54,747 nucleotides of DNA from a virus (IMGVR_UViG_3300037071_003643:1-54747); one strand, 5' to 3'; positions 1 to 54,747 are shown, numbered from the stretch's first letter. Made by a program: numbers and translations. Notes: generated by a model not told the origin, from the sequence alone.

Positions 1-58
1 AAGAAGGACAAGCGGACCTTCCGCCCAGCACCATCGGCAGTCGCGATCGAGCCCAAAT

Positions 59-151
59 CGCTAGCTTTCGGGGTCCCGAGCGCTAGGTTTCCTCGAGGAA
101 TCGCTAGGGTTCCAGGATCGCGGAGCTTTCCGTCCAACATCGCTAGGTTTC
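59..151 (+). repeat. Direct repeats CGCTAG(C/G)(T/G)TTC, probable terminase-binding (cosB-like) sites
   Basis: CGCTAGCTTTC 59-69, CGCTAGGTTTC 81-91, CGCTAGGGTTC 102-112, degenerate CGGAGCTTTC 121-130, CGCTAGGTTTC 141-151; ~20-22 bp spacing, immediately upstream of terS. Confidence 0.65.
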
Positions 152-12531: not shown

Positions 12532-12540
12532 GAGGCCGTC

Positions 12541-17468: not shown

Positions 17469-17470
17469 GG

Positions 17471-29913: not shown

Positions 29914-30102
29914 TCAGGAGGCGAATCGACCGCGCACTTGCTCCAGCTCGCGGATCATCTGCCGTAGCCCGTTCGCGACGATGAGCTCCTCGGGTCGATC
30001 GAATCCGGTACGACGCTGAAACTGGTAGCAGGCGGTGCATCGAGCGTTCGCGCGCGAGACTCGACCGCAGTAGGGGTTCGCGCACTTACGAGAGAGGGTC
30101 AA
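29914..30102 (-). CDS. Small Zn-finger protein
   Basis: CANPYC...CTAC. Confidence 0.55.
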   Translation of the reverse strand: MTLSRKCANPYCGRVSRANARCTACYQFQRRTGFDRPEELIVANGLRQMIRELEQVRGRFAS

Positions 30103-31274
30103 CCGTTCTGCTCCATCGCGTCGATCAGCTCGAGGAGGTCCATAGGCTCTGCGCTGGAGTGTAGCGCTTCGTCTACTCGCTCGTCCCAGGATGGTCCAGA
30201 GGCAGCTGGCACCAGGGCCTCGACGATCTCGCTCTGCTCGTCGCTGGCCTCCTGCGGCGTGAGCATGTGCTCGGGACCGATCTCCACGCCGTCGATCTCC
30301 ACGATGGTCTTACCGGTGAAGTCGCTCGCCGGTGGCTCGACGATCTCGGGCTTGCGCAGCCCCTCGTGGCGGCGCGGCCAGTAGTCGGGACGCGGGATCC
30401 ACTCGCCGTTCTCCAGGACCTCGAGACCCATGCCGAAGTCATCGACCTCGGGTAGCGGCTCGCTCTCGTCCTTGCGCTTCAGCGTCTGCTTGAACACGCT
30501 GTAGTCCACGTGGTGATGGTCGCGCCCGAACTTGAACGCGAGCCGTGCGACGTCCGGATGGAGGTCCACGATCATCTGCGACTTCGGCATCGTGCCCTCG
30601 GCCGCGTAGAACGCCTCCGTGTTGCCCCCGCCGATCACCTGCGTCCTGATCTTGTCGGCCAGGAACGCATTGAAGAGGACGGTGCAGAGACCGTCCTTCA
30701 GGATGCGCAGCGAGAGGTCCGTGTCCTCGTTGTAGCGCCCGCGCCACCGGTAATCGACGTCGTTGCGATTCAGTATGCAGGAGTAGATACGGGTGTTCAG
30801 GTAGTACGGCGATCGCGGCGGGACCTTCGAGACGATGAACATGAAGTATTGGAAGCCCGCCTGCCCGATGTTCTCGAAGCGATCGCAGAAGACCTCGGCC
30901 GCACGCATGATCGTCCCGTCGGCCACGGGTGTCTTCAGGTTGCGGTTGAAGCGATGGAAGTTCAGGATGTTGTCGTCCATCACCCAGTGCCACGCGTGAC
31001 CCTCGGCGATCGAGTGCTCCCACACGAAGTTGCGCGCGGGACCCGGGCCCTTCGACTTCGTGTCGCCGAGATCGTCGCACGTGTCGTACTGCCGCTGGTA
31101 TTCGGGATCGAGCACGAGCAGCCGCTCTCTCGGGAGGTACAGCGCGTAGTCCTCCAGCTGCTGCTCTTCCACGACGACACGATACGGGACGCCGATCTTG
31201 TCGAGCGCCTTCGGCGTGAGCATCGTCTTGGCGCGCGACTTCGAGACGATGTAGACCGGTGCGACGGGGTTCAC
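30099..31274 (-). CDS. TAGT/GREB1-like glycosyltransferase, probable DNA base modification
   Basis: VYIVSKSRA, GPGPARNFVWEHS, HWVMDDNI, NTRIYSCIL, RWRGRYNEDTDLSLR, TQVIGGGNT. Confidence 0.82.
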   Translation of the reverse strand: MNPVAPVYIVSKSRAKTMLTPKALDKIGVPYRVVVEEQQLEDYALYLPRERLLVLDPEYQRQYDTCDDLGDTKSKGPGPARNFVWEHSIAEGHAWHWVMDDNILNFHRFNRNLKTPVADGTIMRAAEVFCDRFENIGQAGFQYFMFIVSKVPPRSPYYLNTRIYSCILNRNDVDYRWRGRYNEDTDLSLRILKDGLCTVLFNAFLADKIRTQVIGGGNTEAFYAAEGTMPKSQMIVDLHPDVARLAFKFGRDHHHVDYSVFKQTLKRKDESEPLPEVDDFGMGLEVLENGEWIPRPDYWPRRHEGLRKPEIVEPPASDFTGKTIVEIDGVEIGPEHMLTPQEASDEQSEIVEALVPAASGPSWDERVDEALHSSAEPMDLLELIDAMEQNG

Positions 31275-31441
31275 TGATCGTCTCCCTCAAGGCAGTCGTC
31301 GTGTCGTCGAGCGAATCCGCCGAATACGTCGGCCGCTTGGACGAGTAGCAGCCCGATGGGTAGCGGCTCGCTCGCGCCGCATCGCTTGCACTCCATCTGC
31401 TGCGTGTTCGCGTTCGCGACGGCCCAGGTATTCTCGCTCAT
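31271..31441 (-). CDS. Small Zn-ribbon protein
   Basis: MSENTWAV...CKRCG...HDDC; coupled overlaps. Confidence 0.55.
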   Translation of the reverse strand: MSENTWAVANANTQQMECKRCGASEPLPIGLLLVQAADVFGGFARRHDDCLEGDDQ

Positions 31442-33467: not shown

Positions 33468-34448
33468 TCACTCGTCCTCGGTCCCGGTGGGGTCGGGCGC
33501 GGGGTCGCCTATCTGCGGTTCGTCCGCGGCGACGAAGGCTATCCCACTCTCAGCTTCGTACCACTCGCCTCCTGGGGTCCCGGTGGGGTCGGGCGCGGCG
33601 GGGGGTGCGGCATGATGCCCGCCGTCGTGTCCCACAGGCTTCATGCAGACCATCTCCGCCCCGCAGGTCCCGGTGGGGACGGTGTGCCAGGGGTCGTGAC
33701 AGGGTTCGGACTCCCCGTGTTTCGGCCTGAGCCCTTCTGCTGTCGCCTCGAATACGCTCCCCTGTTCATACAACTGACGGGTCATGCCGTCCCAGGACGC
33801 CTTCTCGTCCTCGCTTACCTCGCCACACGTCGGGCAGGTCGGTGGGGTGGGGTCGGTGTGCCACGGAGGTAGGTCAGCGTGCGTTGCATCGGTCCAGTCG
33901 GCACCGCCGCCGCTATGGGCATCGGTGTGACCCGTAGCTTTAGTGCAGGTGAACGTTTGGTGTTCGAGGGCACGTTCGGTGATGGTGTCGCCGCAAGTCT
34001 TCTCCGGCTCCCCCTCCTCGGAAGCTAGAGCAGCGCGGGCGGCGGATAGGGCAACGCGACCGTCCTTCTGCGCCGCCGCAACTAGCCGCTCGAACATGGT
34101 GGTCCCGGCGTTCTGCGTGTTGTTCAGGACCCATAGCATCGACCCGATGCCCTTCTCGGATTCCTCCAACGCTTCGGTGAGGGATACGACACGGGCCTCG
34201 GCAACGCTGGCACGCCGGGCGTTGTCGCTGGCCTGCTTGTGAACCGCGTCGGCGCTGTGCCTCGCTGCGTCCCTCTCGGCCTCTAGCTTCGTGCTGTCGT
34301 GCAGCATCGCTCGCCATTCGTTGTCGCGCTTCTCAATCTCGGCCTCTAGGGATGCGACGTGGGCGACGGCAAAGCACACGAAGCACCGGCCCCCGGGTTC
34401 GTGTTTGGGATGTGCCCGCATCATCGCCTCGAAGTCCGGCTCGTTCAT
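33468..34448 (-). CDS. Hypothetical coiled-coil protein with Cys/His modules and APDPTGT repeat
   Basis: Start MNEPDF; 23-bp direct repeat at 33480-33502 and 33576-33598. Confidence 0.55.
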   Translation of the reverse strand: MNEPDFEAMMRAHPKHEPGGRCFVCFAVAHVASLEAEIEKRDNEWRAMLHDSTKLEAERDAARHSADAVHKQASDNARRASVAEARVVSLTEALEESEKGIGSMLWVLNNTQNAGTTMFERLVAAAQKDGRVALSAARAALASEEGEPEKTCGDTITERALEHQTFTCTKATGHTDAHSGGGADWTDATHADLPPWHTDPTPPTCPTCGEVSEDEKASWDGMTRQLYEQGSVFEATAEGLRPKHGESEPCHDPWHTVPTGTCGAEMVCMKPVGHDGGHHAAPPAAPDPTGTPGGEWYEAESGIAFVAADEPQIGDPAPDPTGTEDE

Positions 34449-35149
34449 TCGGCCTCCCCTGGGGACGTGGATACGCGGGCGATCGCGAGCAACTGCTCTC
34501 CGATGAAGCGCGTATAGGCGGGCGGGATCGACTCGCTTAGTTCGTGCCCCGTCATCTCCCAGTCCACCCCCATCGCTGCTTTGTGCTCTTCGAGATCGAC
34601 CGCGCCGGTGTAGCCTCCCGAGATCGAGAGGACGCGGAGCGGCGTCGTGCGGTTCCACGCCGGAGGGTAGATGCGCGGGTAGGCGCCATGGATACAGGGC
34701 GGTGCCATCAGTACGACGTTCGACTCGAACTTCCGGTGGCGACGTATCGGGAGACCGAACGACGAGCCGCAGAGCTTGATCGCGTCGATGAGCGGAGCGC
34801 GCGGGACGTTCTCGATGACGTACGGCAATCCCGTACTGCGCAAGATCGTGCGCGTCGGCTCGATCAGGTCGGGATAGTTCTCGCGATTCTTGATCTTGAC
34901 GGCCTGGGAGAACGACTGGCACGGCGGGCTCGCGTGGATCGCCGAGACGGGTCGACCGTCGAACGTCACGACGCCGCTCGCGGGCCCGTCCCAGAGCGCG
35001 GTGAGTTCGAGCGCGTCGCCCTGATAGAACTCGAACGGGTAGTGCGGCTGGGGGTCGAGATCGACGCCGATGACCTCGTAGCCCGCCTGGTGATATCCCA
35101 TCGACGCGCCCCCTGCGCAGCAGAAGAGATCGACGAGGAGCGGCTTCAT
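34445..35149 (-). CDS. Short C5 cytosine DNA methyltransferase (234 aa)
   Basis: Motif I DLFCCAGG, motif IV ASPPCQ, motif VI IENV, RRHR, terminal ESIPPAY. Confidence 0.88.
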   Translation of the reverse strand: MKPLLVDLFCCAGGASMGYHQAGYEVIGVDLDPQPHYPFEFYQGDALELTALWDGPASGVVTFDGRPVSAIHASPPCQSFSQAVKIKNRENYPDLIEPTRTILRSTGLPYVIENVPRAPLIDAIKLCGSSFGLPIRRHRKFESNVVLMAPPCIHGAYPRIYPPAWNRTTPLRVLSISGGYTGAVDLEEHKAAMGVDWEMTGHELSESIPPAYTRFIGEQLLAIARVSTSPGEAE

Positions 35150-36330: not shown

Positions 36331-36665
36331 ACCGAAGTCCCTTCCGTCTGTCGGTCGATGATGATGCCGCAGATCGAGCACTCGCGCGCGCCGATCAGCT
36401 GGTGGTGTTGCGCGAGCGCGACGACGACGCCGCTAGGTGAGGGCGCGAGCTGGCGCAGGAGCGCCTCTGTTCGACGAGATGCCCATATCGCGGTCGCTTG
36501 TGCCATCGTCTTGGCGCCGAGCGTAGCCCGTATCGCCGTCGCGTGTGTCCGAACCGTCTCGTTCGAGATGTACAACGCCTCGGAGATCGAGCGCGAGTTG
36601 CCGCCGCGTGCGTACAGTTCGAGGATCTGGATCTGCCGCGGCCCGAGCTGCGCGGCGCCCCTCAT
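36327..36665 (-). CDS. LuxR-type HTH regulator
   Basis: LGPRQIQILELYARGGNSRSISEALYISNETVRTH. Confidence 0.8.
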   Translation of the reverse strand: MRGAAQLGPRQIQILELYARGGNSRSISEALYISNETVRTHATAIRATLGAKTMAQATAIWASRRTEALLRQLAPSPSGVVVALAQHHQLIGARECSICGIIIDRQTEGTSV

Positions 36666-36885: not shown

Positions 36886-37527
36886 TCATGCGTCGATCTC
36901 CTCCCCTTCACGAGCGCGCTGCGGTGCGCACCCGTCCTTGATCGGACTCCTGCAGCGCGGGCACACCCACGTGCCTGAGGCGTCCTGCACCGCTGCCGTA
37001 CCCGCACGCACCCCGCATGCCGTGTAAACGACGTCGAACATCTCCTGCTTGTTGTCCTCGGCCTGTAGGAGCCGCTCCTTCGGCTCCAGCGGCTTCGCTG
37101 CCTCCTGCGCTGCTGCGAGAGCGCGCGCTGCCTTGTCCCGTGCCGCGGGATCCCCGTGAGCCGCGCCGTGTCGTAACCGAGCGCCGTCCATGCCGAGCGC
37201 TTCGACGCGAGCGCGGTAGTCGGGCCGCATCGAGAGGAACTCCTCGAGGGTGATAGCGGGCTCGACCATCCCCGATTCGAGCGCTCGCCGCTCGCTCTTG
37301 CGCAGTCGATCGTTGCGGCATTCTCGGATCGTGTCGCGCAGGTCGGGGAGCGTCGGCATATACGCCGAGCCCTCGCCGAGCAGCTGGACGGCTTCGGCGA
37401 TATCGACGAACTCGAACTCGCTGATGCTCTCGGCCCAGAGGACGGCGGTCTGATCGCTCAGCTCGACGCGGCGATAGCTCGCCAGGATCGCGAGCTGCTT
37501 CAGTGCTTCGGCGATCGACGTGGTCAT
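36886..37527 (-). CDS. Putative helicase loader/inhibitor
   Basis: LWAESI...IAEAV...YMPTLPDLR; directly downstream of initiator. Confidence 0.6.
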   Translation of the reverse strand: MTTSIAEALKQLAILASYRRVELSDQTAVLWAESISEFEFVDIAEAVQLLGEGSAYMPTLPDLRDTIRECRNDRLRKSERRALESGMVEPAITLEEFLSMRPDYRARVEALGMDGARLRHGAAHGDPAARDKAARALAAAQEAAKPLEPKERLLQAEDNKQEMFDVVYTACGVRAGTAAVQDASGTWVCPRCRSPIKDGCAPQRAREGEEIDA

Positions 37528-38276
37528 ATGCCCTCCTCACGGGCTCGTTCGGCTAGGTCCAGGATGTTACCGACGCCCTTGGCCGAGGAGCCTCGAGCGG
37601 GTAGCGGGCCGTCATCCCAGCACCCGTTGTTGAGCCAGGTCGTGGGGAGCATCGTGTAGCGGGGATCGCGGTTCGGGTCGTCTCGGTAGCGCGACGCTCC
37701 GGCGATGATCACACCGGGATCGACGCCGCGTTTGACCGCGGCCTTGAACTTGGCCTCGGCGCCCAGCTTCTTGTCCCGACGTGGATATTCCCGCCAGAAC
37801 TCGGCGAAGGAATGAGCAGCAACTCGAACAAGATTCAAAGGCTCTTGCTCTTGGGGTAGGGGTAGGGGTTCGGGTAGGGGTTGGGGTAGGGGTAGGGGTA
37901 GGGGGCTATGCTGTTGCTTCCCGTTTGCTACAGCCGTGCTATCCGTTTGCTTTCCCCAACGTACCTGCGCGCCCTTGCGACCTGCCCTGACCTTCGCGTC
38001 GTGCTTCTCTCGACTTTGCGCTAGTACCTCCGCGCGTTGCGGGTTGTATTCGAGGTAGTCGTGGATCGTCGGACCCTTGTCCCAAAGACCCGATCTGGTC
38101 AGCTCGTCTGCTATCGCTGTTCCGTATCTCTCGACGATAGCACGCGGGATAGCACCATCGGTGAGGTTACGGGCGACGTAGCAGAGCGTTTCGACGTAGC
38201 ATCTGAACGCTTGGTCACTGAGATCGACCACCTTCGGAGACTCGGCGAAGCGATCGTCGAGACGGACCCAGCTCAT
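37524..38276 (-). CDS. Phage replication initiator
   Basis: MSWVRLDDRF..SPKV, IHDYLEYNP, PxPxP linker, FAEFWREYPRR, PTTWLNNGCWDD. Confidence 0.8.
   Translation of the reverse strand: MSWVRLDDRFAESPKVVDLSDQAFRCYVETLCYVARNLTDGAIPRAIVERYGTAIADELTRSGLWDKGPTIHDYLEYNPQRAEVLAQSREKHDAKVRAGRKGAQVRWGKQTDSTAVANGKQQHSPLPLPLPQPLPEPLPLPQEQEPLNLVRVAAHSFAEFWREYPRRDKKLGAEAKFKAAVKRGVDPGVIIAGASRYRDDPNRDPRYTMLPTTWLNNGCWDDGPLPARGSSAKGVGNILDLAERAREEGI
37853..37951 (+). repeat. (GGGGTA)n tract plus CCGTTTGCT repeats within initiator; candidate origin
   Basis: Nine G-runs at 37853-37905; CCGTTTGCT at 37921 and 37943. Confidence 0.45.
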
Positions 38277-39253: not shown

Positions 39254-39453
39254 CCGCGAGCGCGCCAGACCTTCTTGACGTTAGCCATATCGTGACGACC
39301 CTCATAGCCCGACTTCCCGCCGCGATGAAAGACTCCGACCAGCTCGTGCCCGTCGTACACCTTCAGGTGCTTTGAGCCGTTCTCGATCGTCGCGCCGTGC
39401 TGTTTCGCCGCCTTGATGAGCGCCCTCGCCTTCTTGGGAATCTGGTCCATCAT
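39241..39453 (-). CDS. HicA-like small protein
   Basis: LIKAAKQHGATIENGSKHLKVY...ANVKKVWRARG. Confidence 0.55.
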   Translation of the reverse strand: MMDQIPKKARALIKAAKQHGATIENGSKHLKVYDGHELVGVFHRGGKSGYEGRHDMANVKKVWRARGWIE

Positions 39454-40166
39454 GCGCTCCCTTCTGTGAGCGATGGGTGCTCCTCTTGCCACGCGGCGAT
39501 CGCGTACTCCAGCTCTTCGGCTGTCGCGTTCACGATCGTGCGAGCCGTGTACGGCGCCTGCCCCTCGGGGATGATCGCGTTCACGATCTCGCGCGACTTC
39601 GACGCCGAGCCGGTGAGCTCACGCAGCTGCGTCTGGAGCTGGGATTGGTCGGTCGATGGTACGGGCGGTGGGGAGGGCGGGGGTGTCCCGCTTGACCCCC
39701 CGCCCTCCGTCGCCTTCGAGACCGTCGCGGTCGAATGACCCTCACGCCCCTCGTCCTGACGTGGTCTCGAAGCTTGCTGCCCGTCGTCGTCCTCGGCTGC
39801 GAGTCCTAACGCTGCTAGCAACTGATAGCGCCTGCCGTAGGTGATGGCACTCCCAACCGACTGCGCGTCGCTTGCATGTGGAACTGCTAATGGGCCGAAC
39901 TCGATCCACTCGCCCGACTTGTGCATCAGTCGCGTGACGATCGACGTACGACCCTCGATGGTGACCGTATCCTGTAGCAGCATGATGCGCTGCGCCGAGA
40001 GCGTCGGCACGATCGCCCCGAGGATCGTCGGCAGGTCGGCGTAGTCGTACGAGAACGAGCCTCCCGACTTGGTGGGGATGTTCGCTCGCGCCGACTTCGC
40101 CGGGTTCTGCAGGTCGGCCGCCTGGAGCGCGTCCAGTAGCTCGCCGATGGTGTCGCTCGTTCTCAT
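39450..40166 (-). CDS. erf: ERF-family single-strand annealing protein
   Basis: YDYADL, HKSGEWI, AQSVGSAITYGRRYQLLAALGLAAEDDDG. Confidence 0.92.
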   Translation of the reverse strand: MRTSDTIGELLDALQAADLQNPAKSARANIPTKSGGSFSYDYADLPTILGAIVPTLSAQRIMLLQDTVTIEGRTSIVTRLMHKSGEWIEFGPLAVPHASDAQSVGSAITYGRRYQLLAALGLAAEDDDGQQASRPRQDEGREGHSTATVSKATEGGGSSGTPPPSPPPVPSTDQSQLQTQLRELTGSASKSREIVNAIIPEGQAPYTARTIVNATAEELEYAIAAWQEEHPSLTEGSA

Positions 40167-46431: not shown

Positions 46432-46739
46432 CGCTCGTCCTCCTCCTCGTTGAGCTCACGACGCAGGCGGTCGATTGCGCCGGGCTGGTAGCCGTCGCGA
46501 TCTTCCTTCCACGTCTCGATCCAGGGAATCGTGTAGGCCCGGAGCTGTCCGTGGACCGTGAGTCCCGCGTCCTCGGACTTACGCGCGGCCCGCTCCAGCA
46601 GTTCGAGCGCGTCGTTGAGCTTGTCCTGAGCGCTCTCCAGCAGGTCGTCGATCTCGTCTCGCGTCTCGACGTCGTACTCGATCTCGGGGTTGCAGGCGGT
46701 GCAGTCGTCCTCGTGCTCGCAGTTCGTCCAGGTGGTCAT
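46428..46739 (-). CDS. Acidic hypothetical protein
   Basis: MTTWTNCEHEDDC; GAGGA RBS. Confidence 0.55.
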   Translation of the reverse strand: MTTWTNCEHEDDCTACNPEIEYDVETRDEIDDLLESAQDKLNDALELLERAARKSEDAGLTVHGQLRAYTIPWIETWKEDRDGYQPGAIDRLRRELNEEEDER

Positions 46740-48476: not shown

Positions 48477-48827
48477 ATGCCACGAGCAGCCCAGCGCGCA
48501 TGTGCACAGCCGGGCTGCGGGGGCTTCGCGATCGCCGGTCGCTCTCGCTGTCGAGAGCACGGAGCGTCCCAGCAGCCGCGTCGCCACGACCCGACGCACG
48601 CCGTCTACAAGTCGCCGAGATGGAAGGCGCTGCGGCGTCGAGTACTGAGCGAGGAGCCGGTCTGTCGTCACTGCGGCTCTCGCCCGTCGGTCGTCGTCGA
48701 TCACCTGACGGAGCTCACGGACGGGGGCGACCCGTTCGATCGAGCGAACCTCGCGGGATCCTGTAACGAGTGCAACGTCTCGAAGGGCCAGCGAGCGGCC
48801 CAGCGTCGTAGGAAGGCCTCGGCATGA
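48477..48827 (+). CDS. HNH endonuclease (HK97 gp74-like, terminase-associated)
   Basis: RWKALRRRVLSEEPVCRHC, VVDH, NLAGSCNECN. Confidence 0.88.
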   Translation: MPRAAQRACAQPGCGGFAIAGRSRCREHGASQQPRRHDPTHAVYKSPRWKALRRRVLSEEPVCRHCGSRPSVVVDHLTELTDGGDPFDRANLAGSCNECNVSKGQRAAQRRRKASA

Positions 48828-49042
48828 AGGTGAAGCAGATCACGAGAGAGGTACGAGAGCGCGGCCAGCTCGCCGATCGCACCTGGCCTGCCCAGCGCCG
48901 GACGACCTACGTGCCAGGGCGCATCTGCGTCTACGCCGGCTGCCGATTCCAGCTCTCCCGCTATAACCCCAACCCGACCTGCTGGCAGCACACCAAGCCG
49001 AAGATCGTGACGCGCACCCCGCGCAACGGAGCGACCCTATGA
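48824..49042 (+). CDS. Small Zn-finger protein
   Basis: RICVYAGC...LSRYN...CWQH. Confidence 0.55.
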   Translation: MKVKQITREVRERGQLADRTWPAQRRTTYVPGRICVYAGCRFQLSRYNPNPTCWQHTKPKIVTRTPRNGATL

Positions 49043-49653
49043 CGACGCTCGCGACGCCCCAAGCGCTCGCGGCGATGCGCGGCACGACGTACGACCCGAC
49101 CGATCTCGTGCAGGCGATCTCGCTCGAAGCTGCCTCTGCCGCTGTCCGCGGCTACTGCGATCGCCAGTTCGATTACGTCGAGGACGATGAACTCACGATC
49201 GACGGGAGCGGAGGAGAGGCCCTCCTCCTGCCCGAGCTACCGGTGTACGACGTCGCCGTGACCTACGTGGATCCCGACGGGGACGAGGACGAGGTCGACA
49301 CCGAGGACTACGCGATCGACTTCCCGAACGGCATCCTGTACCGGCACAACGAGGGCTGCTGGACGAGAGGCAGGCAGAACGTTCTCGTGACCTACAGTCA
49401 CGGCTACGTCCTCCCCGACGAGACTCCTCCCGATGGCGTCCAAGCGCTCCCCGACGACCTGCAGATGGTCGTCCTCCAGATCGCGTCTCGCGTCGTCGCG
49501 AATCCCGATGGACGAGCAGCGAGCGCCGAGACCATCGGCAGCTACTCGGTCACCTACGGAGATCGCTCGTCGAACGGCTCGACCGTCCACGCGACGATCC
49601 TGCCGCTGGAGAGCAGCGTCCTCGATCGCTACCGCCTACGGAGCCTGGTATGA
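49039..49653 (+). CDS. Head-tail adaptor (gp6/gp15-like)
   Basis: LEAASAAVRGYCDRQF, VTYSHGY, LPDDLQMVVL, ETIGSYSVTY, LDRYR. Confidence 0.85.
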   Translation: MTTLATPQALAAMRGTTYDPTDLVQAISLEAASAAVRGYCDRQFDYVEDDELTIDGSGGEALLLPELPVYDVAVTYVDPDGDEDEVDTEDYAIDFPNGILYRHNEGCWTRGRQNVLVTYSHGYVLPDETPPDGVQALPDDLQMVVLQIASRVVANPDGRAASAETIGSYSVTYGDRSSNGSTVHATILPLESSVLDRYRLRSLV

Positions 49654-49925
49654 CGCTCGCTCCCGACCTGCAGTTCGAGTTCGCGCACCGCGGTCCCTAC
49701 GCCGTCCTCCTCAGGCGGTCCGAGCCCTGGCCCCGCCACGTGACGATCGGCCACGACTGGCTCGAATGGGCGGGCAACTCCGCCTGGGTGCAGCGCGAGC
49801 CGAACGGCGGAGTCTGGCTCCGTCCCACCGATACGGCGCCCGCTCTCTATCGCTTCGAGCACGCGGCAGACGGCGACGATCACTACCGGCTCGTGGCGGT
49901 CGGCGATCCACCGAGGTTCGTGTGA
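49650..49925 (+). CDS. Hypothetical protein
   Basis: ATGA coupling. Confidence 0.5.
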   Translation: MTLAPDLQFEFAHRGPYAVLLRRSEPWPRHVTIGHDWLEWAGNSAWVQREPNGGVWLRPTDTAPALYRFEHAADGDDHYRLVAVGDPPRFV

Positions 49926-50128
49926 CTGAGCTCCGCGTCGTCGGCGAGACGTCCTGGAGCGGCTGCGCCATCTGCGATCGAGCGGACGAGCACTACCACT
50001 CGATGGAAGAGCTGGGACGCGCGTTCGCCGAGACGACGGGCCTGACGATCCACGATTCCGACTCGCAACGTAACTGGGCAGCCGCGATCGACCTTGGACC
50101 TTCCGTGGACCTTGGACCTTCGGACTGA
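49922..50128 (+). CDS. Small hypothetical protein running into the repeat array
   Basis: GTGA coupling; CAIC...HYH. Confidence 0.45.
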   Translation: MTELRVVGETSWSGCAICDRADEHYHSMEELGRAFAETTGLTIHDSDSQRNWAAAIDLGPSVDLGPSD

Positions 50129-50203
50129 CAGTCGGCTTGGACCTTGGACCTTTGGACCTTGGACCTTGGACCTTGGACCTTGGACCTTGGACCTTGGACC
50201 TTG
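50092..50203 (+). repeat. Tandem heptamer array (TTGGACC)n
   Basis: 7 perfect units at 50152-50200, 2 at 50137-50150, about 3 more at 50094-50118. Confidence 0.95.
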
Positions 50204-50507
50204 CCCGCGTCTCGCGCGCTCGTCTCGATCGACGCTCGCGCGCTCGACGTCGCGATCGCGATCGCGCGCTTCGCTCGCTTCGACGTCTCGCGAGCTTTCG
50301 AGCTTTCGACGATCTCGCGCGCTCGACGCTTCGACGTCGCGATCGCTCGACGCGACTTCGACGCGCTCGAAGATCGACGACGCGCTAGCTCGTCTCGCGC
50401 TCTCTACTAGTAGTCGCTCGACGCGCTCTCTCTAAGCGCTCGTCTCTCGCTCGAACGTACGAGCGCGAAGCGTAAGCTAGAACTAACGCTTTCGTTAGCG
50501 AATACGC

Positions 50508-50536
50508 TAGACGTTCGTTAGCGACTTCGCTAGTCT
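50508..50536 (+). promoter_or_regulatory. Promoter for the 1118-aa ORF
   Basis: TAGACG-ttcgttagcgacttcgc-TAGTCT; near copy of the promoters at 45455 and 47497. Confidence 0.7.
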
Positions 50537-50588
50537 CTCGTTAGTCGCTCGTATCGAGACGAGCGAACGAGAGAAAGAGAGACGAGCC

Positions 50589-53500
50589 ATGATCGAGAAC
50601 GAGAACGAGACGCGAGACGCGATCGAAGCGACGATCGAAGAGCTACGAAGCGAGCGCTACGCGAAGTCGAACGAGCGCGACGCTCGCGACGACGACGTAG
50701 ACGCGATTAGCGAGTCGATCGTAGACGAAGAGACGTACGTCGCGAACGTCGCGAAGCTCTCGAACGTCGAGCGCTTCGACGTCGAAAGCTCGATCGCGTC
50801 GAAGCGCGTCGAGCGCGAGCTAGCTAGTCGCGCGAGCGACGATCTCTCGCGCGAGATTCGCGCGCTCGACGAAGAGATCGAAGAGAAAGTCGCTTATCTC
50901 GCGACGCTCGCGAGCGTCGAACGCGACGTCGCGAGCTACGTCGAAGAGACGCTCGACGACGACGCGCTCGCTCGCGTCGCTCGCGCTTCGCTCGACGACG
51001 CGAAGAGCGAAGAGAGCGACGACGCTTTCGATCGCGAAGAGAGCGACGAAGAGCGCGCGACGCGCGAAGAGATCGAGCGCGAAGAGAACGAGTCGAAGAT
51101 CGACTATCGCGATCTCGACGCTTTCGATCGCGCGTTCGATCGAAGCGACGCTCTCGACGTTCTCGCGAGCGAGCTAGACGCGCTTCGCGATCGCGAGATC
51201 GACGAAGAGCTAGCGCTCTCTCGTTCGCTCGCGATCGTCTACGACGTCGTAAAGAGCGCGCGCGTCGAAGCGACGAACGCTACGAACGTCGCGCGTCGCG
51301 TCGCTCGCGATCGCTTCGACGTCGAGCGCGAAGTCTCGAAGCGCTCGCGCGTCGAAGCTCTCGATCTCGCGCTCTCGATCTTCGAGAGCGTCTACGCGAG
51401 CTACGAATACTCGCGCTACGCGATCGACTTCGAGCGCGTCTACGTCGCTCTCGCGACGATTCGCGACTTCGAGATCGAGAACGAGCGCGACGACGACGAA
51501 GCGACGCTCTCGCTCGAAGAGAGCGACGCGCTCGCTAGCTCGATCGTCTCGAAGAGCGCTTACGAGAACGCGACGACGCGCGAAGAGCGCGACGCTCGCT
51601 CGCTCGCTCGACGCGACGCGATCGCGAACGACGCGAAGCGACGCGAGATCGACTCGACGCTCGAAGAGACGCGCGCGAAGATCGACGAAGCGCGTAAGCG
51701 CTCGATCGCGTTCGCGCGCGAGAGCGAGCGAGCGTTCGAGAACGAGACGAGCGACGCGCTCTCGACGTTCGACGTCGAAGAGTACGCGCGAGACGAAGCG
51801 CGCTACGACGCTTATATCGTCTCGCTCGCTACTCGCGTCGTCGAGACGTTCGACGACGACGCGCTCGACTACGATATCTTCGCGTTCGTCGCTCGCTCGC
51901 TCGACGTCGTAGACGTCGAGAGCGCTCGCGAGAACGAAGCGAGCGAAGAGTATCTCGTCTCTCGCGAGACGTTCGTTAGCGTCGCGAGCGACGTCGTACG
52001 AGTCTCGATCTCGCTCGTCTACGACGAAGCGCTCGAAGAGAACGAAGCGCGCGACGTCGAAGCGATCGTCGCTCGTAAGATCGAAGAGCGCGAGCGCGAA
52101 GAGTTCGCGCGCTCGTTCGAGTTCGTCGATTCGCTCTCGAAGATCGAGCGCGACTACTACGACGCTTTCGAGCGCGACTACTACGAGCGCTACGGCGCTA
52201 ACGAGTACGTAACGACGTCGAGCGACGATATTCTCGGTCGCGTCGTCTACGTAGACGACGATCGAGACGAGACGACGACGCGCGAAGAGCGCGAGAACGA
52301 GACGACGACGCGCGTCTACTTCGAGCGCGATTCGTTCGCGAAGCTCGTTAGCGAGACGACGACGAAGAACGACTCGACGACGCTCGACGAAGCTCGCGCG
52401 CTTATCTCGAAGCTCGAAGCGAGCGTCGCGCTCGTCTCGAAGAGCGACGACGACGAAGCGCTCGACGCTACGCGAGACGAGAGCGAGTACGTCGTCGTAG
52501 AGAACGACGACGCGCGCTCTTACGACGTCGTAGCGCGAGACTCGATCGCGAAGCGCGCGACGCGCTCGTTCGACGACGACGACGACGACGAAAGCGAGAA
52601 CGTCGCGAATAACGACGCGATCGCGACTTACGCGAAAGAGAACGACGTCTCTCTCGCGAGCGCTATCGAGACGTTCGACGTCGTCGAAGAGATCGTCGCG
52701 AACGACGATCGCGTAAGCGACGCGCTCGCTACGAGCGTCGCTCGCGAAGAGCTACGCGAACGCGAGATCGACTTCGACGACGAAGCTCTCTCGAAGCTCG
52801 TAGACGAAGCGATCGCGAAGCGCGACGCGACGACGTACGAGACGAAGCGCGAGAGCGCGCGAGACGTCGCTACGCGAGCGCTCGAAGTCGCGAGCGACGA
52901 AGAGCGCGAAGTCGCGATCGAGATCGAAGCGAAGATCGAGAACGCGCGAGACGTCGAGCGTACGAAGCTCGCGAGAGATCGCGCGCTCGATCGTCTCGAC
53001 GCGCTTACGAGCGCTCGCGAAGTCGTCTACGAGCGACAGTTCGAGCTAGACGAGAGCGAAGAGCGCGACGCTTACGCGCTCGTTCTCGACGATCTCGAAA
53101 GCGCGCTCGACGAAGCGCGCGACGACGTAGACGCGAAGCGCGAACGTCTCGCGTCTCTCTACTTCGTCGAGACGAACGACGACGACGCGAAGAGCGACGA
53201 CGCGAAAGCGAGCGACGCTCTCGAAGCGATCGAGCGCGAGAACGCGAAGATAGACGAAGAGACGAAGCGCGACGACGACGCGACGCGCGAGAGCGCTTCG
53301 ACTTCGTTCGCTCGCGCGATCGCGAGCGCTAACGTCGAATACGCTTACGACGTCGCGTTCGATAACGCGATCGACTTCGAGAACGACGACGACGTAGCTA
53401 TCGACGTCGAAGCGCTTATCGACGATCTCGAAGTCGTCGTCTACGAAGCGTCGCGCGAGATCGAGAACGAGTACGAGCGCGACGTCGTTCGCGAAGTCGT

Positions 53501-53945
53501 CGTCGAGTACGTCGAGACGATTCGCGCGCTAAACGCGACGTCTACGACGAGCGAAGAGACGAAGAGCGCGTCGAGCGTCTCGCTTCGCGACTTCGACGAC
53601 GCGCTACGTATCGAGAACGACGAAGAGCGCGTCGCGAAGCTAACGTCGTTCGCGTCGCGCTCGAAGTCGAAGAGCGATCGAAAGAGCGCGAGCGACGAAG
53701 TCGTGCGCGAGTACGTCGCGAAAGCGCTCGACGATCTCTACGCGAGCGAGATCGAAAGCGCGATCGCGAGCGAGCTAGACGCGAACGACTACGAGAGCGA
53801 CGAAGCGCGACGTATCGCGAAGCGCGAAGCTCTCGTTAGCGCGATCGTCGATACGTCGTCGCTCGCTCTCTACGACGCGAACTACGACGTAGACGAGATC
53901 GAAGAGAACGACGCGCTAGAACGATTCGCGCGCGAGATCGTCTAG
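50589..53945 (+). CDS. Giant acidic protein with restricted alphabet; candidate DNA-mimic anti-defence protein
   Basis: 1118 codons open although TAG/TAA are common in the segment; own promoter, purine-rich RBS, downstream hairpin; function is inference. Confidence 0.8.
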   Translation: MIENENETRDAIEATIEELRSERYAKSNERDARDDDVDAISESIVDEETYVANVAKLSNVERFDVESSIASKRVERELASRASDDLSREIRALDEEIEEKVAYLATLASVERDVASYVEETLDDDALARVARASLDDAKSEESDDAFDREESDEERATREEIEREENESKIDYRDLDAFDRAFDRSDALDVLASELDALRDREIDEELALSRSLAIVYDVVKSARVEATNATNVARRVARDRFDVEREVSKRSRVEALDLALSIFESVYASYEYSRYAIDFERVYVALATIRDFEIENERDDDEATLSLEESDALASSIVSKSAYENATTREERDARSLARRDAIANDAKRREIDSTLEETRAKIDEARKRSIAFARESERAFENETSDALSTFDVEEYARDEARYDAYIVSLATRVVETFDDDALDYDIFAFVARSLDVVDVESARENEASEEYLVSRETFVSVASDVVRVSISLVYDEALEENEARDVEAIVARKIEEREREEFARSFEFVDSLSKIERDYYDAFERDYYERYGANEYVTTSSDDILGRVVYVDDDRDETTTREERENETTTRVYFERDSFAKLVSETTTKNDSTTLDEARALISKLEASVALVSKSDDDEALDATRDESEYVVVENDDARSYDVVARDSIAKRATRSFDDDDDDESENVANNDAIATYAKENDVSLASAIETFDVVEEIVANDDRVSDALATSVAREELREREIDFDDEALSKLVDEAIAKRDATTYETKRESARDVATRALEVASDEEREVAIEIEAKIENARDVERTKLARDRALDRLDALTSAREVVYERQFELDESEERDAYALVLDDLESALDEARDDVDAKRERLASLYFVETNDDDAKSDDAKASDALEAIERENAKIDEETKRDDDATRESASTSFARAIASANVEYAYDVAFDNAIDFENDDDVAIDVEALIDDLEVVVYEASREIENEYERDVVREVVVEYVETIRALNATSTTSEETKSASSVSLRDFDDALRIENDEERVAKLTSFASRSKSKSDRKSASDEVVREYVAKALDDLYASEIESAIASELDANDYESDEARRIAKREALVSAIVDTSSLALYDANYDVDEIEENDALERFAREIV

Positions 53946-53976
53946 CGCGCTCGATCGCGCTAGAACGAGCGAGCTA

Positions 53977-54000
53977 AGAGCGACGCGAGAGCGTCGCTCT
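53977..54000 (+). terminator. Terminator-like hairpin
   Basis: AGAGCGACGC-GAGA-GCGTCGCTCT, 10-bp stem with GNRA loop; no U tract. Confidence 0.55.
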
Positions 54001-54489
54001 CTCGCTGTCTAAGCTCGTCTAAGCGTCGCGCGATACGTCGTTAGTCTCTCGTACTAGCTCGCGCGCTCGACGTCTCTACGTCGCTTAGAGAGCGCTACGC
54101 GCGATCTCGCTTCGCGCTCTCTCGACGTCTCTAAGCGATCGACGCTCGCTCGCGTACGTCTACTCGTCTCGCGATCGCGCGTCGCTTAGACGCGCTCTCG
54201 TAGCGCTACGCGCTCGCTCTCGATCGACGACGCGATCTCGAAGCTCTACGCGCTCGCGCTAGAACGCGCGCTCGATCGTCTCTCGCTCGACGCGCGCTTC
54301 GCTTCGTCGCGCTCTCGATCTCGACGCTACGCGCTCGTCTACGTCGAACGTCTACTCGTACGCGCTCGCTCGCTCGTCTAGCGTAGAGAGCGGCCTAAGC
54401 GACGCTACGACGTCGAGACGCGACGCTCGTACGAGACGCGACGACGCTATCTCGATCGCTTAGAACGCTCGGCCTAAGCCACGAGGCGC

Positions 54490-54548
54490 GAAAGCTAGCG
54501 ACGATTCGACGAAACCTAGCGCTAGCTTCGACGTCGAGAAAGCTAGCG
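54490..54548 (-). repeat. Inverted copies of the left-end repeat
   Basis: GAAAGCTAGCG 54490, GAAACCTAGCG 54511, GAAAGCTAGCG 54538, the reverse complements of CGCTAGSTTTC. Confidence 0.7.
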
Positions 54549-54747
54549 ATACGTATAGCTTCGCGATCGAGAGTAGCTAGCTTCGAGACGTTCGCGAGAT
54601 ACGTTCTAGCGTAAGCGATACGAGAGAACGAGAGATCGTAAGCGACGCTAAGCGACGACGGCCGAGATAGCTTACGTCGTAAGAGATATCCCAGGGCGGG
54701 GTCGAATCTCTCGGTCCGCCGCGCGGGGATCAGCAAGTCTCTCCTTC

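What the first reader, a model, noticed from the sequence alone, without database searches (positions are those of the whole stretch)
50589..53945. 1118-aa acidic protein written in 13 amino acids
Seen: no Pro, His, Trp or Cys, one Met, two Gly, one Gln. These are exactly the residues whose codons need CC, GG, CA or TG. About 31 of the first 100 residues are D/E against about 15 K/R, and the sequence looks helical with periodic F/Y. Inference: a long Ocr/ArdA-like DNA mimic or decoy. Because ATG, GTG and TTG all contain TG, several early functions may have been fused under one start codon. The retained G, G and Q residues may mark essential positions.
Basis: partly seen in the sequence, partly recalled or inferred. 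Interest (0 to 1): 0.85.

Follow-up and report, generated by a model that had tools for sequence, protein, structure and literature searches.

The report
Phage end lacking four dinucleotides
The last 4.5 kb of this phage genome is written almost without the base pairs CC, GG, CA and TG, so its one large gene can use only 13 amino acids; this looks like DNA built to escape bacterial defences as it enters the cell.

Summary
Window 50206-54391 (4186 nt) has 8 CC/GG/CA/TG steps where about 1025 are expected; three of the eight form the CCATG at the start codon. The purge covers the ORF, 383 nt upstream and 446 nt downstream, and holds across codon borders, so it acts on DNA and the 13-letter alphabet is its by-product.

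The ORF (50589-53945, 1118 aa, pI 4.2, net charge -167) looks like a real gene. No simulation of 300 gave so long an open frame, its codon-position GC matches the other genes, and it has a GG-free ribosome site. It has no homologue in any search.

The island also has no copy of seven otherwise permitted 6-bp palindromes, and these same seven are the most depleted in the rest of the genome. It lies next to terminase-type repeats at the contig ends, so it is probably the first DNA to enter. A (GACCTTG)x17 array marks its inner edge.

Best reading, confidence about 0.5: a stealth leading-end cassette with one early, probably anti-defence gene, comparable to the T5 first-step-transfer region. An Ocr/ArdA-like DNA mimic is not supported beyond acidity. 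Boldest reading: the four dinucleotides are the phage's own cytosine-methylation sites, leaving the island unmodified. No read-level or expression data could be obtained.

The parts
50090..50203 (.). Tandem array of about 17 copies of the heptamer GACCTTG. It abuts the inner edge of the island and is itself dense in CC, GG and TG. Possible boundary or stop element (inferred).
   Evidence: (period 7, 17.0 copies, score 126) and the sequence. The last forbidden steps before the island are at 50196-50205.
50206..54391 (.). Strict island: 4186 nt with 8 CC/GG/CA/TG steps against about 1025 expected. It also has no copy of CTCGAG, GTCGAC, GAGCTC, ACGCGT, TTCGAA, ATCGAT or AGATCT.
50206..50588 (+). 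Non-coding leader of 383 nt, also free of the four dinucleotides. It is rich in TAG/TAA and carries 23-nt direct repeats (50491-50544). It presumably holds the promoter, but no sigma-70-type match was found.
   Evidence: 0 promoter-like sites; leader fold z = -2.0, with RBS and AUG unpaired in the minimum-energy fold.
50572..50582 (+). Purine-rich ribosome-binding site AGAAAGAGAGA, 6 nt before the ATG. It reads as a GG-free version of the full Shine-Dalgarno complement; the 16S rRNA tail sequence used for this comparison is recalled.
   Evidence: Sequence.
50589..53945 (+). Gene for a 1118-aa, 127-kDa acidic protein (P0001) written in 13 amino acids plus M1, G2 and Q1. Its ATG is one of only three TG steps in the strict island.
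   Evidence: GC by codon position is 0.68/0.38/0.80. Open-frame simulation; codon-neighbour rule.
53977..54000 (+). Perfect 10-bp hairpin AGAGCGACGC-GAGA-GCGTCGCTCT, 32 nt after the stop codon. Possible terminator, with no U-tract.
   Evidence: Sequence and fold. The whole 85-nt stretch folds at -43.1 kcal/mol with z = -1.5, which is not exceptional for this composition.
53946..54391 (.). Non-coding trailer of 446 nt, free of the four dinucleotides apart from one TG at 54006.
54392..54690 (.). Relaxed end of the island, with few forbidden steps (three of the exceptions are GGCC). It holds three inverted copies of the box TCGCTAG[CG]TTTC at 54490-54549, two of them in the CC/GG-free variant.
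58..151 (+). Four direct copies of the same box, TCGCTAG[CG]TTTC, just upstream of the small terminase gene (164-625). Together with the inverted copies at the other contig end they suggest that the contig ends flank the packaging (cos) site.
   Evidence: terminase small and large subunits.
34445..35143 (-). Compact (232 aa) C5-cytosine DNA methyltransferase with a very short target-recognition region. It is the candidate writer of a short-context modification; its specificity is unknown.
   Evidence: PF00145, 26.1 bits against a cut-off of 22; 314 phage records, mostly actinophages.
30099..31274 (-). Glycosyltransferase of the TET-associated (TAGT) family. No TET/JBP dioxygenase was detected in the window.
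   Evidence: PF20691, E 3e-40; no Tet_JBP match at E <= 1 in six frames.

Best explanation
The right-hand 4.5 kb of this cos-type siphophage genome is a 'stealth' cassette. Its DNA vocabulary has been cut down by selection so that short-motif-reading host nucleases find nothing in it. It carries a single real gene.

The host is probably a high-GC actinobacterium. The cassette lies at the end opposite the terminase genes. By the usual last-packaged, first-ejected rule, it should be the first DNA to enter the cell.

Proposed sequence of events:
1. The island enters first, possibly pausing at the (GACCTTG)x17 array.
2. Its one gene is transcribed from the 383-nt leader and translated from the only ATG.
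3. The very acidic 127-kDa product neutralises one or more host defences, or otherwise prepares the cell, before the ordinary, motif-bearing bulk of the genome is exposed.

Shown here: the DNA-level purge, the reality of the coding frame, the extra purge of seven palindromes, and the position next to the terminase-type repeats. Inferred: entry order, the pause, early expression, and the anti-defence role of the protein. The 13-amino-acid alphabet is a side effect of the DNA rule, not a design feature of the protein.
For: 1. The purge acts on DNA.
- It covers coding DNA and both non-coding flanks and is strand-symmetric.
- Synonymous codons are chosen by the first base of the next codon. GAG is followed by G in 0 of 102 cases, while GAA is followed by G in 57 of 67. 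GAC is followed by G or T in 127 of 127, and GAT by C or A in 20 of 22. Bulk genes show no such rule.

2. The gene is real.
- 0 of 300 simulations at each of two Markov orders reach 1118 open codons.
- The other five frames of the ORF carry 11-33 stops.
- GC by codon position, 0.68/0.38/0.80, matches the phage's other genes.
- The only ATG sits 6 nt after AGAAAGAGAGA.
- The acidity is not forced by the DNA rule: the other frames would give R/S-rich products.
- The helical hydrophobic moment is z = 2.2 above shuffles, against 0.3-1.1 in the three other frames tested.

3. The signature is one of restriction avoidance.
- Seven palindromes built only from permitted dinucleotides have 0 copies in the island against Markov expectations: CTCGAG 13-24, GTCGAC 10-15, GAGCTC 6-16, ACGCGT 6-12, TTCGAA 4-8, ATCGAT 3-5, AGATCT 2.5-3.6.
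- The same seven have the lowest observed/expected ratios of the 35 testable palindromic hexamers in window 1-50000.
- Palindromes that the bulk does not avoid (CGATCG, TCGCGA, GACGTC, AGCGCT, GCGCGC) occur in the island near expectation; CGCGCG (43) meets only the order-4 expectation of 49.5.

4. Position.
- The box TCGCTAG[CG]TTTC occurs 4 times at 58-151 (+) before the small terminase gene and 3 times inverted at 54490-54549. Only 3 one-mismatch copies occur elsewhere in the window.
- An HNH endonuclease gene lies at 48477-48827, and TerS and TerL at 164-2375.
- The minus-strand early-type genes (replication initiator, ERF, LuxR-type regulators, methyltransferase) are read inward from about 47.5 kb, near this end.

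5. The inner edge is abrupt, changing within 3 nt, and coincides with a 17-copy tandem array.

6. Precedents.
- In T5, restriction sites in the first-transferred region are cleaved while those in later DNA are protected by a pre-early function, and the transfer stop lies among direct repeats (10.1101/866236, passages read).
- In Murciavirus phages, a Type I motif matters only when it lies in the first-injected region (PMC12455610, abstract read).

7. The exact 1118-aa sequence is on record from two sources, JGI/IMG and Logan, on 3 contigs.
Against: - No transcript, peptide or read-level data were obtained. The run-finding tool could not be reached in 7 tries, so early expression, the physical ends and the entry order all remain inference.
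- IMG/VR classes the contig as linear with no end repeats, and CheckV estimates 63% completeness. The island could therefore be internal to a larger genome.
- The gene points outward, towards the DNA end. Its promoter would be the last part of the island to enter, and transcription cannot pull the genome in as it does in T7.
- On a circularised genome the ORF is co-directional with the HNH, adaptor and terminase genes, so late expression is possible.
- A union of ordinary 4-8 bp restriction sites does not obviously explain the loss of every copy of four dinucleotides. Only about 76% of random hexamers contain one of them.
- Many common palindromes stay abundant: TCGA 147, CGCG 236, GATC 69.
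- The protein has no homologue and no confident fold, so its function is a guess.
- No second example of such an island was found, so the frame's conservation cannot be tested.
Confidence: 0.5

Rival explanations
1. Self-modification reading (the boldest). The forbidden set is one short motif, C followed by A or C (its complement is G preceded by T or G), and this is what the phage's own compact C5-cytosine methyltransferase writes, perhaps with further decoration. The bulk genome would then be modified at about a third of its cytosines and so shielded from classical restriction at every site that contains the motif. The island is the one stretch that cannot be modified, and so is invisible to modification-dependent (Type IV) nucleases. 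Because it has no shield, it must also be free of every unprotectable restriction site.
For: - A 232-aa C5-methyltransferase with a very short target-recognition region is encoded at 34445-35143, and a TAGT-family glycosyltransferase at 30099-31274.
- Phage enzymes that read only 2-3 bases are documented: C5-MTs specific for GpC[C/T] or any GpC (PMC8256090, passages read), and T-dioxygenases preferring NTG or NTC (PMC13229309, passages read).
- In window 1-50000 the seven most depleted of the 35 testable palindromic hexamers all lack CC/GG/CA/TG. None of the 19 palindromes that contain them has an observed/expected ratio below 0.5, against 5 of 16 that lack them (Fisher p = 0.013). This is what protection at those dinucleotides predicts.
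- Bulk relative abundances fit long-term 5mC-to-T decay at C[A/C]: CC 0.72, CA 0.81, GA/TC 1.51, TA 0.66. CC, GA/TC and CG lie beyond all 15 related loci (CC 0.74-1.23, GA 1.05-1.48), TA ties the highest (0.39-0.66), and CA is lower than in 14 of the 15 (0.76-1.24).
- A control actinophage with a 48%-identical methyltransferase shows neither pattern.
- Methylation-dependent restriction is established in Streptomyces (PMC3009677, title and abstract start seen).
Against: - The methyltransferase's specificity is unknown. The motifs published for phage C5-MTs are GpC-based, and GCT and GCG are plentiful in the island.
- No TET/JBP dioxygenase or ParB was detected, so the glycosyltransferase may not act on DNA at all. 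Five other TAGT-carrying viral records also gave no TET match, but that search's own control found nothing anywhere, so it is uninformative.
- The overall rank test of palindrome classes is not significant (Mann-Whitney p = 0.15), and the comparison was made after seeing the data.
- The bulk depletion of CC and CA could equally mean that these dinucleotides are mildly costly everywhere.
- The supplementary motif tables of PMC8256090 could not be opened.
Confidence: 0.25
2. One reading: the product is a giant Ocr/ArdA-type DNA mimic or decoy that soaks up Type I restriction, BREX and similar DNA-binding defence proteins.
For: - Net charge is -167, pI 4.22, and every 50-residue block is net negative.
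- The acidity is chosen rather than forced, since other frames of the same DNA would be basic.
- The position at the probable leading end parallels T7 gene 0.3 (recalled).
Against: - No match to any Pfam family, Ocr and ArdA included, at E <= 1; none in PHROGs, NCBIfam or PDB sequences.
- At 1118 aa it is many times larger than known mimics (sizes recalled), and it also has 13.5% K+R.
- The model (pLDDT 43.3, pTM 0.27) cannot show a DNA-like charge array.
- No repeat of a mimic-sized unit was found.
- Part of the acidity may follow from the rule that C-ending codons must be followed by G- or T-starting ones, and G-starting codons encode A, D, E or V.
Confidence: 0.15
3. The rule serves gene expression rather than defence. 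Removing TG and CA removes every ATG, GTG, TTG and CTG on both strands. Removing GG and CC removes every Shine-Dalgarno core on both strands. Ribosomes could then start at only one place in 4.5 kb, and nothing could be translated from antisense or out-of-frame RNA.
For: - The four dinucleotides are exactly those needed for start codons and for GGAGG-type sites, on both strands.
- The only ATG is the start codon, and the ribosome site is a GG-free look-alike.
- No sigma-70-type promoter match occurs in 49600-54747.
Against: - A lone TG or GG is not a start signal, so purging every copy is far more than this aim needs.
- It does not explain the seven missing palindromes or their depletion across the genome.
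- Spurious internal starts are tolerated in all the other genes of the same phage.
Confidence: 0.05
4. The DNA itself is the functional element, for packaging termination, cos recognition, the mechanics of the last-packaged and most tightly bent DNA, or end protection. The open frame would then be secondary or non-functional.
For: - The island abuts terminase-type repeats.
- CA/TG and CC/GG are steps with distinctive mechanical properties (recalled).
- The purge continues through about 830 nt of strictly purged non-coding DNA.
Against: - Mechanical selection gives statistical biases, not near-total loss of four dinucleotides.
- The frame is open far beyond chance and shows gene-like codon-position GC, a start codon and a ribosome site.
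- The missing palindromes point to nucleases.
Confidence: 0.04
5. Assembly artefact, chimera or non-biological sequence.
For: - It is a metagenome contig.
- The island lies at a contig end.
- No relative carries anything like it.
Against: - Both flanks tie it to the phage. The tandem array and the upstream gene lie on one side. On the other, boxes match those before the terminase gene at the far end of the contig.
- Codon-position GC matches the phage's.
- The same seven palindromes are avoided in the island and in the bulk.
- The identical protein is on record from JGI/IMG and from Logan.
Confidence: 0.01

Closest known systems
Phage T5 first-step-transfer (pre-early) region and its injection stop signal
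   Same: - A terminal few per cent of the genome enters first and carries genes that act before the rest arrives.
- Restriction sites matter only in that region, while later DNA is protected by a pre-early function.
- The boundary lies among direct repeats.
(10.1101/866236, passages read.)
Here there is a terminal 4.5 kb with one gene, no avoided restriction sites, and a 17-copy tandem array exactly at the inner edge.
   Different: - Two-step entry has not been shown here.
- There is no similarity to any PHROG family.
- There is one gene rather than many.
- The T5 text I read describes no dinucleotide-level purge.
- The repeats here are a simple heptamer array, not DnaA-box arrays.
Leading-end anti-restriction in T7-like phages (gene 0.3 Ocr; motif-free early-injected region)
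   Same: [quoted passage not shown] Here an acidic product is encoded at the probable leading end.
   Different: - The gene points outward, so transcription-driven entry as in T7 (recalled) cannot apply.
- The product has no Ocr match and is about ten times larger.
- The avoidance concerns dinucleotides and seven palindromes, not one Type I motif.
Restriction-site (palindrome) avoidance in phage genomes
   Same: Short palindromes are depleted genome-wide. In window 1-50000, GTCGAC is seen 9 times against about 60 expected, ATCGAT 4 against 38, TTCGAA 0 against 15, and AGATCT 2 against 13.
   Different: Classical avoidance removes particular 4-6 bp words. Here a whole class of dinucleotides is removed from one 4.2-kb block, which also removes about 76% of all possible hexamers and seven amino acids.
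Short-context phage DNA modification systems (C5-MT + TET/5mYOX + glycosyltransferase)
   Same: - The window encodes a compact C5-methyltransferase and a TAGT-family glycosyltransferase.
- Published phage enzymes read contexts of only 2-3 bases (PMC8256090 and PMC13229309, passages read).
   Different: - No TET/JBP or ParB was found.
- No unmodifiable island is mentioned in the passages I read.
- The motif proposed here, C[A/C], is not among those passages' motifs.
Polyvalent proteins of phages and conjugative elements
   Same: These are very large single polypeptides deployed early in conflicts with the host (PMC5512222, title and start of abstract only).
   Different: Those proteins are defined by strings of recognisable domains. 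P0001 has none.

Membership tests
Ocr (T7 gp0.3) DNA mimics | Sequence membership in the Ocr family | tested here: not met
   No Pfam family of any kind at E <= 1, no PHROG and no PDB chain at E <= 1.
Ocr / ArdA DNA mimics | Small (roughly 110-170 aa) subunit whose surface carboxylates copy the phosphate pattern of bent B-DNA (recalled) | tested here: inconclusive
   The size criterion is not met (1118 aa). The charge criterion is met only in bulk (net -167). Surface geometry cannot be tested because the model has mean pLDDT 43.3 and pTM 0.27, so no fold search was run.
ArdA anti-restriction proteins | Sequence membership in the ArdA family | tested here: not met
   No Pfam or NCBIfam match.
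T5-type first-step-transfer region | Lies at the genome end that enters first | not testable with these tools
   Inferred only. Terminase-type boxes lie at both contig ends, with the terminase genes at the opposite end. Read-level checks were impossible because the tool was unreachable.
T5-type first-step-transfer region | Cis-acting stop among repeats at the inner boundary | tested here: inconclusive
   A (GACCTTG)x17 array lies exactly at the boundary, but its function is unknown.
T5-type first-step-transfer region | Homologues of the pre-early genes (A1, A2, dmp) | tested here: not met
   The only gene has no PHROG match.
Restriction-site avoidance | Significant depletion of short palindromes relative to Markov expectation | tested here: met
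   Seven hexamers have 0 copies in the island against expectations of 2.5-24. The same seven have the lowest observed/expected ratios in the bulk.
Phage C5-MT / TET / glycosyltransferase hypermodification cluster | C5-methyltransferase, TET/JBP dioxygenase and glycosyltransferase encoded together | tested here: not met
   The methyltransferase and the TAGT glycosyltransferase are present, about 3.2 kb apart. No Tet_JBP match at E <= 1 in six frames.
Real protein-coding gene | Open frame beyond chance, codon-position composition, start signal | tested here: met
   Expression itself was not tested.

The most novel reading that the evidence does not exclude
The phage writes a dinucleotide-level mark, C5-methylation (possibly elaborated) of C in C[A/C], over its whole genome as a shield against classical restriction. 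It keeps one 4.5-kb leading-end cassette that cannot be marked and also contains no unshielded restriction site. That cassette would be invisible both to modification-blocked and to modification-dependent nucleases. From it the phage would express a 127-kDa acidic effector, built from 13 amino acids, before the marked DNA is exposed. This would be the first 'epigenetically blank' entry module, and a natural large protein constrained to a 13-letter alphabet by a DNA rule.
Probability: 0.25. Interest if true: 0.92.

Novelty: new variant of a known kind. Interest (0 to 1): 0.8.

Why it matters
If the reading holds, motif avoidance in phages can go far beyond dropping a few restriction sites. A whole entry module can be rewritten in a reduced DNA vocabulary, at the cost of seven amino acids and all but one start codon.

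That gives a directly testable model for how a siphophage of high-GC bacteria survives its first minutes in the cell. It also gives a natural experiment on how large a protein can be built from 13 amino acids without Gly or Pro, apart from two Gly.

There is a simple composition signature as well, the absence of several dinucleotides over kilobases, with which viral metagenomes could be screened for other entry or anti-defence modules that homology searches cannot see.

If the dinucleotides prove to be the phage's own methylation motif, it would further show that a phage balances protection by modification against the risk from modification-dependent nucleases, region by region.

Tried and rejected
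**Homology searches for P0001: nothing but itself**
- Pfam, PHROGs and NCBIfam.
- The 5.8-billion-protein word search and full HMMER over 1.84 billion representatives.
- PDB sequences, tblastn against 50,697 phage records and the ESM Atlas (no usable hit).
- Peptide-pattern scans of viral contigs and metagenome contigs.

**DNA searches**
- Neither the island nor window 1-20000 matched the phage collection. The low-complexity filter may have masked the island query.

**Search for a second island: none found**
- No 400-nt window with 3 or more absent dinucleotides in 125 foreign viral loci, about 1.33 Mb, reached through the adaptor, the heptamer repeat, TAGT and TerL.
- The lowest density seen was 10 forbidden steps per 200 nt.
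- None in 3 prophage-like loci from MAGs labelled Micromonosporaceae, Streptosporangiaceae and Paludibaculum, and none in Gordonia phage PhorbesPhlower.
- BLAST of the island against 401 sampled Actinomycetes genomes gave only 30-42-nt matches in 4 of them, with no island around them. Only the top 2 candidates per genome were scored.
- These were biased and small samples, not a composition scan of the collections.

**Other checks that led nowhere**
- The (GACCTTG)x4 pattern found 6 unrelated viral contigs.
- Rfam: no match in 49900-54747. tRNA scan: none.
- AlphaFold2 from the single sequence gave pLDDT 43.3. I did not run fold searches on it, and I left the second fold job and the complex job unused.
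- TET/JBP and ParB were not found in the window. The TET search over 5 other TAGT-bearing records was uninformative, because its control found nothing anywhere.
- The weak match of the ORF start to 46648-46683 is a chance similarity inside another gene.

**Ideas considered and rejected**
- Deamination or hypermutation as the sole cause: GC stays at 0.62, CpG is enriched 2.4-fold and the frame is intact.
- Type I-E CRISPR PAM avoidance: AAG is enriched in the island. The PAM itself is recalled.
- A protein-level cause: the rule also holds in non-coding DNA and across codon borders.

**Tools unavailable**
- The look-up of sequencing runs could not be reached in 7 tries, so read laying was never used.
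- Literature: two searches aimed at such an island found no description of one. One search, on methylation motifs in actinophages, found nothing relevant. Supplements were not available.

Full report
**What the window is**

The window is a complete IMG/VR viral record of 54,747 bp. IMG/VR classes it as linear, and CheckV estimates 63% completeness. GC is 0.62-0.67 throughout.

Gene content is that of a siphovirus-like phage:
- Small and large terminase subunits at 164-625 and 690-2375, followed by a long plus-strand block that by position holds the structural genes (not scanned against families), running to about 29 kb.
- A minus-strand block from about 47 kb down to 30 kb. It holds a replication initiator (37524-38276), an ERF recombinase (39450-40166), LuxR-type regulators, a compact C5-cytosine methyltransferase (34445-35143) and a TAGT-family glycosyltransferase (30099-31274).
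- A short plus-strand block with an HNH endonuclease (48477-48827) and a head-tail adaptor (49039-49653).

The nearest large terminase in isolated phages is only 35% identical. The best matches in prokaryote genomes are MAGs labelled Streptosporangiaceae (53%), Paludibaculum (44%) and Micromonosporaceae (39%). The methyltransferase family is common in Mycobacterium, Streptomyces, Arthrobacter and Gordonia phages. A high-GC actinobacterial host is therefore likely but not shown.

**The observation**

The ORF 50589-53945 encodes 1118 residues with no P, H, W or C, one M, two G and one Q. The first 100 residues hold 31 D/E against 15 K/R.

The phenomenon, however, belongs to the DNA.
- From 50206 to 54391 (4186 nt) there are 8 CC/GG/CA/TG steps. 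At the frequency seen in window 1-50000 (24.5% of steps) about 1025 are expected.
- Three of the eight are the CCATG at the start codon. Two are the Gly codons, one is the Gln codon, one is a Val GTG codon, and one lies in the non-coding trailer.
- The purge covers 383 nt of leader and 446 nt of trailer as fully as it covers the ORF.
- It fades only over the last 350 nt of the contig.
- Outside this terminal region the longest run free of the four dinucleotides is 43 nt.

**DNA rule and coding rule act together**

Of the 64 triplets, 36 avoid the four dinucleotides. Thirty-four are sense codons for 13 amino acids and two are the stops TAA and TAG.

The rule also holds across codon borders, and synonymous choice shows this plainly:
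- GAG is followed by a G-starting codon in 0 of 102 cases, while GAA is in 57 of 67.
- GAC is followed by G or T in 127 of 127 cases.
- GAT is followed by C or A in 20 of 22 cases.
- Bulk genes of the same phage show no such rule.

**Is the ORF a gene?**

Several lines say yes.
- Markov simulations trained on the island never gave an open frame of 1118 codons: 0 of 300 at order 1 and 0 of 300 at order 2, with maxima of 579 and 569.
- The other five frames of the ORF carry 11-33 stops.
- GC by codon position is 0.68/0.38/0.80, like the phage's other genes.
- The single ATG lies 6 nt after AGAAAGAGAGA. This reads as a GG-free copy of the extended Shine-Dalgarno complement; the 16S rRNA tail used for that comparison is recalled.
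- A perfect 10-bp hairpin follows the stop codon at 53977-54000.
- The acidity is not dictated by the DNA rule, because the other frames would give Arg/Ser-rich products.
- The helical hydrophobic moment is modestly above residue shuffles (z = 2.2), whereas the three other frames tested give 0.3-1.1.

I accept the ORF as a real gene. Its expression has not been shown.

**What the protein is**

It is an orphan. No family, homologue or solved relative appeared in any search. It has no internal repeats.

AlphaFold2 without an alignment gives a mostly helical, low-confidence model: mean pLDDT 43.3, pTM 0.27, and only 52 residues between 70 and 90. I ran no fold search on it. Nothing beyond net charge supports an Ocr- or ArdA-like DNA mimic.

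**A second layer of avoidance**

Within the permitted vocabulary, seven 6-bp palindromes are wholly absent from the island although Markov models expect them:

| Palindrome | Copies in island | Expected |
|---|---|---|
| CTCGAG | 0 | 13-24 |
| GTCGAC | 0 | 10-15 |
| GAGCTC | 0 | 6-16 |
| ACGCGT | 0 | 6-12 |
| TTCGAA | 0 | 4-8 |
| ATCGAT | 0 | 3-5 |
| AGATCT | 0 | 2.5-3.6 |

All four NTCGAN' palindromes are missing although TCGA itself occurs 147 times.

The same seven words have the seven lowest observed/expected ratios among the 35 testable palindromic hexamers in window 1-50000. Five of them are the most under-represented hexamers of any kind there.

Palindromes that the bulk does not avoid (CGATCG, TCGCGA, GACGTC, AGCGCT, GCGCGC) are present in the island near expected numbers; CGCGCG (43) reaches only the order-4 expectation of 49.5. 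This is the classical footprint of restriction enzymes, and in the island it is absolute.

**Position**

The 12-nt box TCGCTAG[CG]TTTC occurs four times at 58-151, directly before the small terminase gene. It occurs three times in inverted orientation at 54490-54549. Only three one-mismatch copies occur anywhere else in the window.

Together with the nearby HNH gene, this suggests that the two contig ends flank the packaging site. The island would then be the right-hand end of the virion DNA.

For cos and pac siphoviruses, packaging usually starts at the terminase end and the last DNA packaged is the first ejected (recalled, as in lambda and SPP1). On that rule the island enters first. The early-type minus-strand genes are read inward from about 47.5 kb, which fits entry from this end.

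The inner edge of the island is abrupt, changing within 3 nt. It coincides with about 17 tandem copies of GACCTTG at 50090-50203.

**Best explanation**

I read the island as a leading-end 'stealth' cassette. It would be DNA that motif-reading nucleases cannot recognise, carrying one early gene whose acidic product deals with host defences, or otherwise prepares the cell, before the ordinary DNA is exposed.

Two precedents are close.
- T5. Restriction sites in the first-transferred region are cut, those in later DNA are protected by a pre-early function, and the transfer stop lies among direct repeats (10.1101/866236, passages read).
- Murciavirus. A Type I motif counts only when it lies in the first-injected region (PMC12455610, abstract read).

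Entry order, a pause at the array, early expression and the protein's role are all inferred. My confidence is about 0.5.

**Why these four dinucleotides?**

A union of ordinary restriction sites explains this poorly. Only about 76% of random hexamers contain one of the four, and many common palindromes remain abundant in the island.

A process that reads dinucleotides fits better. The phage encodes a 232-aa C5-methyltransferase with a very short recognition region. Phage enzymes that read 2-3 bases are documented: GpC[C/T] or GpC methyltransferases (PMC8256090) and NTG- or NTC-preferring thymine dioxygenases (PMC13229309).

If this methyltransferase marks C in C[A/C], several things follow.
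- All four forbidden dinucleotides are explained, since they are CC and CA and their complements GG and TG.
- Sites that contain them would be shielded in the bulk genome. That would explain why none of the 19 such palindromes has an observed/expected ratio below 0.5, while 5 of the 16 palindromes lacking them do (Fisher p = 0.013).
- The island would be the one stretch that stays unmarked. It would therefore be safe from methylation-dependent nucleases, which are established in Streptomyces (PMC3009677, title and abstract start seen).
- Having no shield, the island would have to be free of every unshieldable site, as observed.

The bulk genome also shows a milder version of the island's bias: CC 0.72, CA 0.81, CG 1.38, GA/TC 1.51 and TA 0.66. 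CC, CG and GA/TC are beyond all 15 related loci, TA ties the highest, and CA is lower than in 14 of them. This would fit long-term 5mC decay at C[A/C].

A control actinophage with a 48%-identical methyltransferase has neither the island nor this pattern. Its most avoided palindromes are GGATCC and AGGCCT.

Against this reading:
- The enzyme's motif is unknown.
- No TET/JBP or ParB was detected.
- The overall rank test of the palindrome classes is not significant (p = 0.15).
- The comparisons were made after seeing the data.
- Bulk depletion could equally mean the dinucleotides are mildly costly everywhere.

I give it about 0.25.

**Other rivals**

- A zone free of translation starts on both strands neatly describes the forbidden set, but it explains neither the strength of the purge nor the missing palindromes.
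- A purely structural DNA role does not fit the evidence for a gene.
- An artefact is unlikely. Both flanks tie the island to the phage, the same palindromes are avoided inside and outside it, and the identical protein is on record from JGI/IMG and from Logan.

**Novelty**

I found no second example in the limited, biased samples I could scan. The two literature searches aimed at such an island described none, and a third, on actinophage methylation motifs, was not relevant.

Motif avoidance and leading-end anti-defence genes are known kinds of thing. A kilobase-scale purge of four dinucleotides that forces a 1118-residue protein into 13 amino acids is, to my knowledge, not known. I file it as a new variant of a known kind with high interest.

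**What remains open**

- Read-level confirmation of the genome ends, expression data and sequence variants could not be obtained, because the run-finding tool was unreachable.
- Paper supplements were not available.

Noticed in passing
window 50090-50203: About 17 tandem copies of the heptamer GACCTTG. They begin inside the 3' end of a possible 68-aa ORF (49922-50128) and end 3 nt before the island. The array is unusually dense in the very dinucleotides the island lacks. The exact 28-nt pattern occurs in 6 unrelated viral contigs.
   Followed up: partly
window 1-50000: Strong genome-wide depletion of GTCGAC (9 against about 60 expected), ATCGAT (4 against 38), TTCGAA (0 against 15), AGATCT (2 against 13) and ACGCGT (11 against 28), with milder depletion of CTCGAG and GAGCTC. 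The tetramers CGGA/TCCG (434 against 708, both strands counted) and CTGA/TCAG (260 against 398) are also strikingly rare; that is unexplained.
   Followed up: partly
window 1-50000: The bulk genome has lower relative abundance of CC/GG (0.72), and higher CG (1.38) and GA/TC (1.51), than all 15 related loci compared. CA/TG (0.81) is lower than in 14 of the 15, and TA (0.66) ties the highest. This is a mild version of the island's bias.
   Followed up: partly
window 58-151 (+) and 54490-54549 (-): The box TCGCTAG[CG]TTTC occurs four times directly before the small terminase gene and three times inverted at the other contig end. These are probably terminase-binding sites flanking cos. The last bases of the contig (TCCTTC) and bases 3-8 (GAAGGA) are inverted repeats.
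   Followed up: partly
window 33468-36381 (-): Three overlapping, apparently co-translated genes:
- a 411-aa protein with an N-terminal coiled-coil-like part and motifs that, read by eye, resemble a clan GH-A glycosidase (no family match);
- the 232-aa C5-methyltransferase;
- a 324-aa Cys/His-rich protein.
The long ORF 33468-35252 listed by the ORF finder is a composite of two frames, to judge from the GC3 plot.
   Followed up: partly
window 30099-31722 (-): The TAGT-family glycosyltransferase (582 relatives in IMG/VR by the pattern scan) has a 94-aa upstream neighbour with no family match. That neighbour is conserved in 32 of the 80 TAGT loci fetched. No TET/JBP was found beside it here.
   Followed up: partly
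window 49039-49653: A head-tail adaptor gene lies before the island and the terminase genes, away from the main plus-strand block where the structural genes are expected. This is an unusual position.
   Followed up: no
window 32517-33041 (-) and 48477-48827 (+): Two HNH endonuclease genes. One lies near the packaging region; the other (HNH_2) lies between the glycosyltransferase and the methyltransferase.
   Followed up: no
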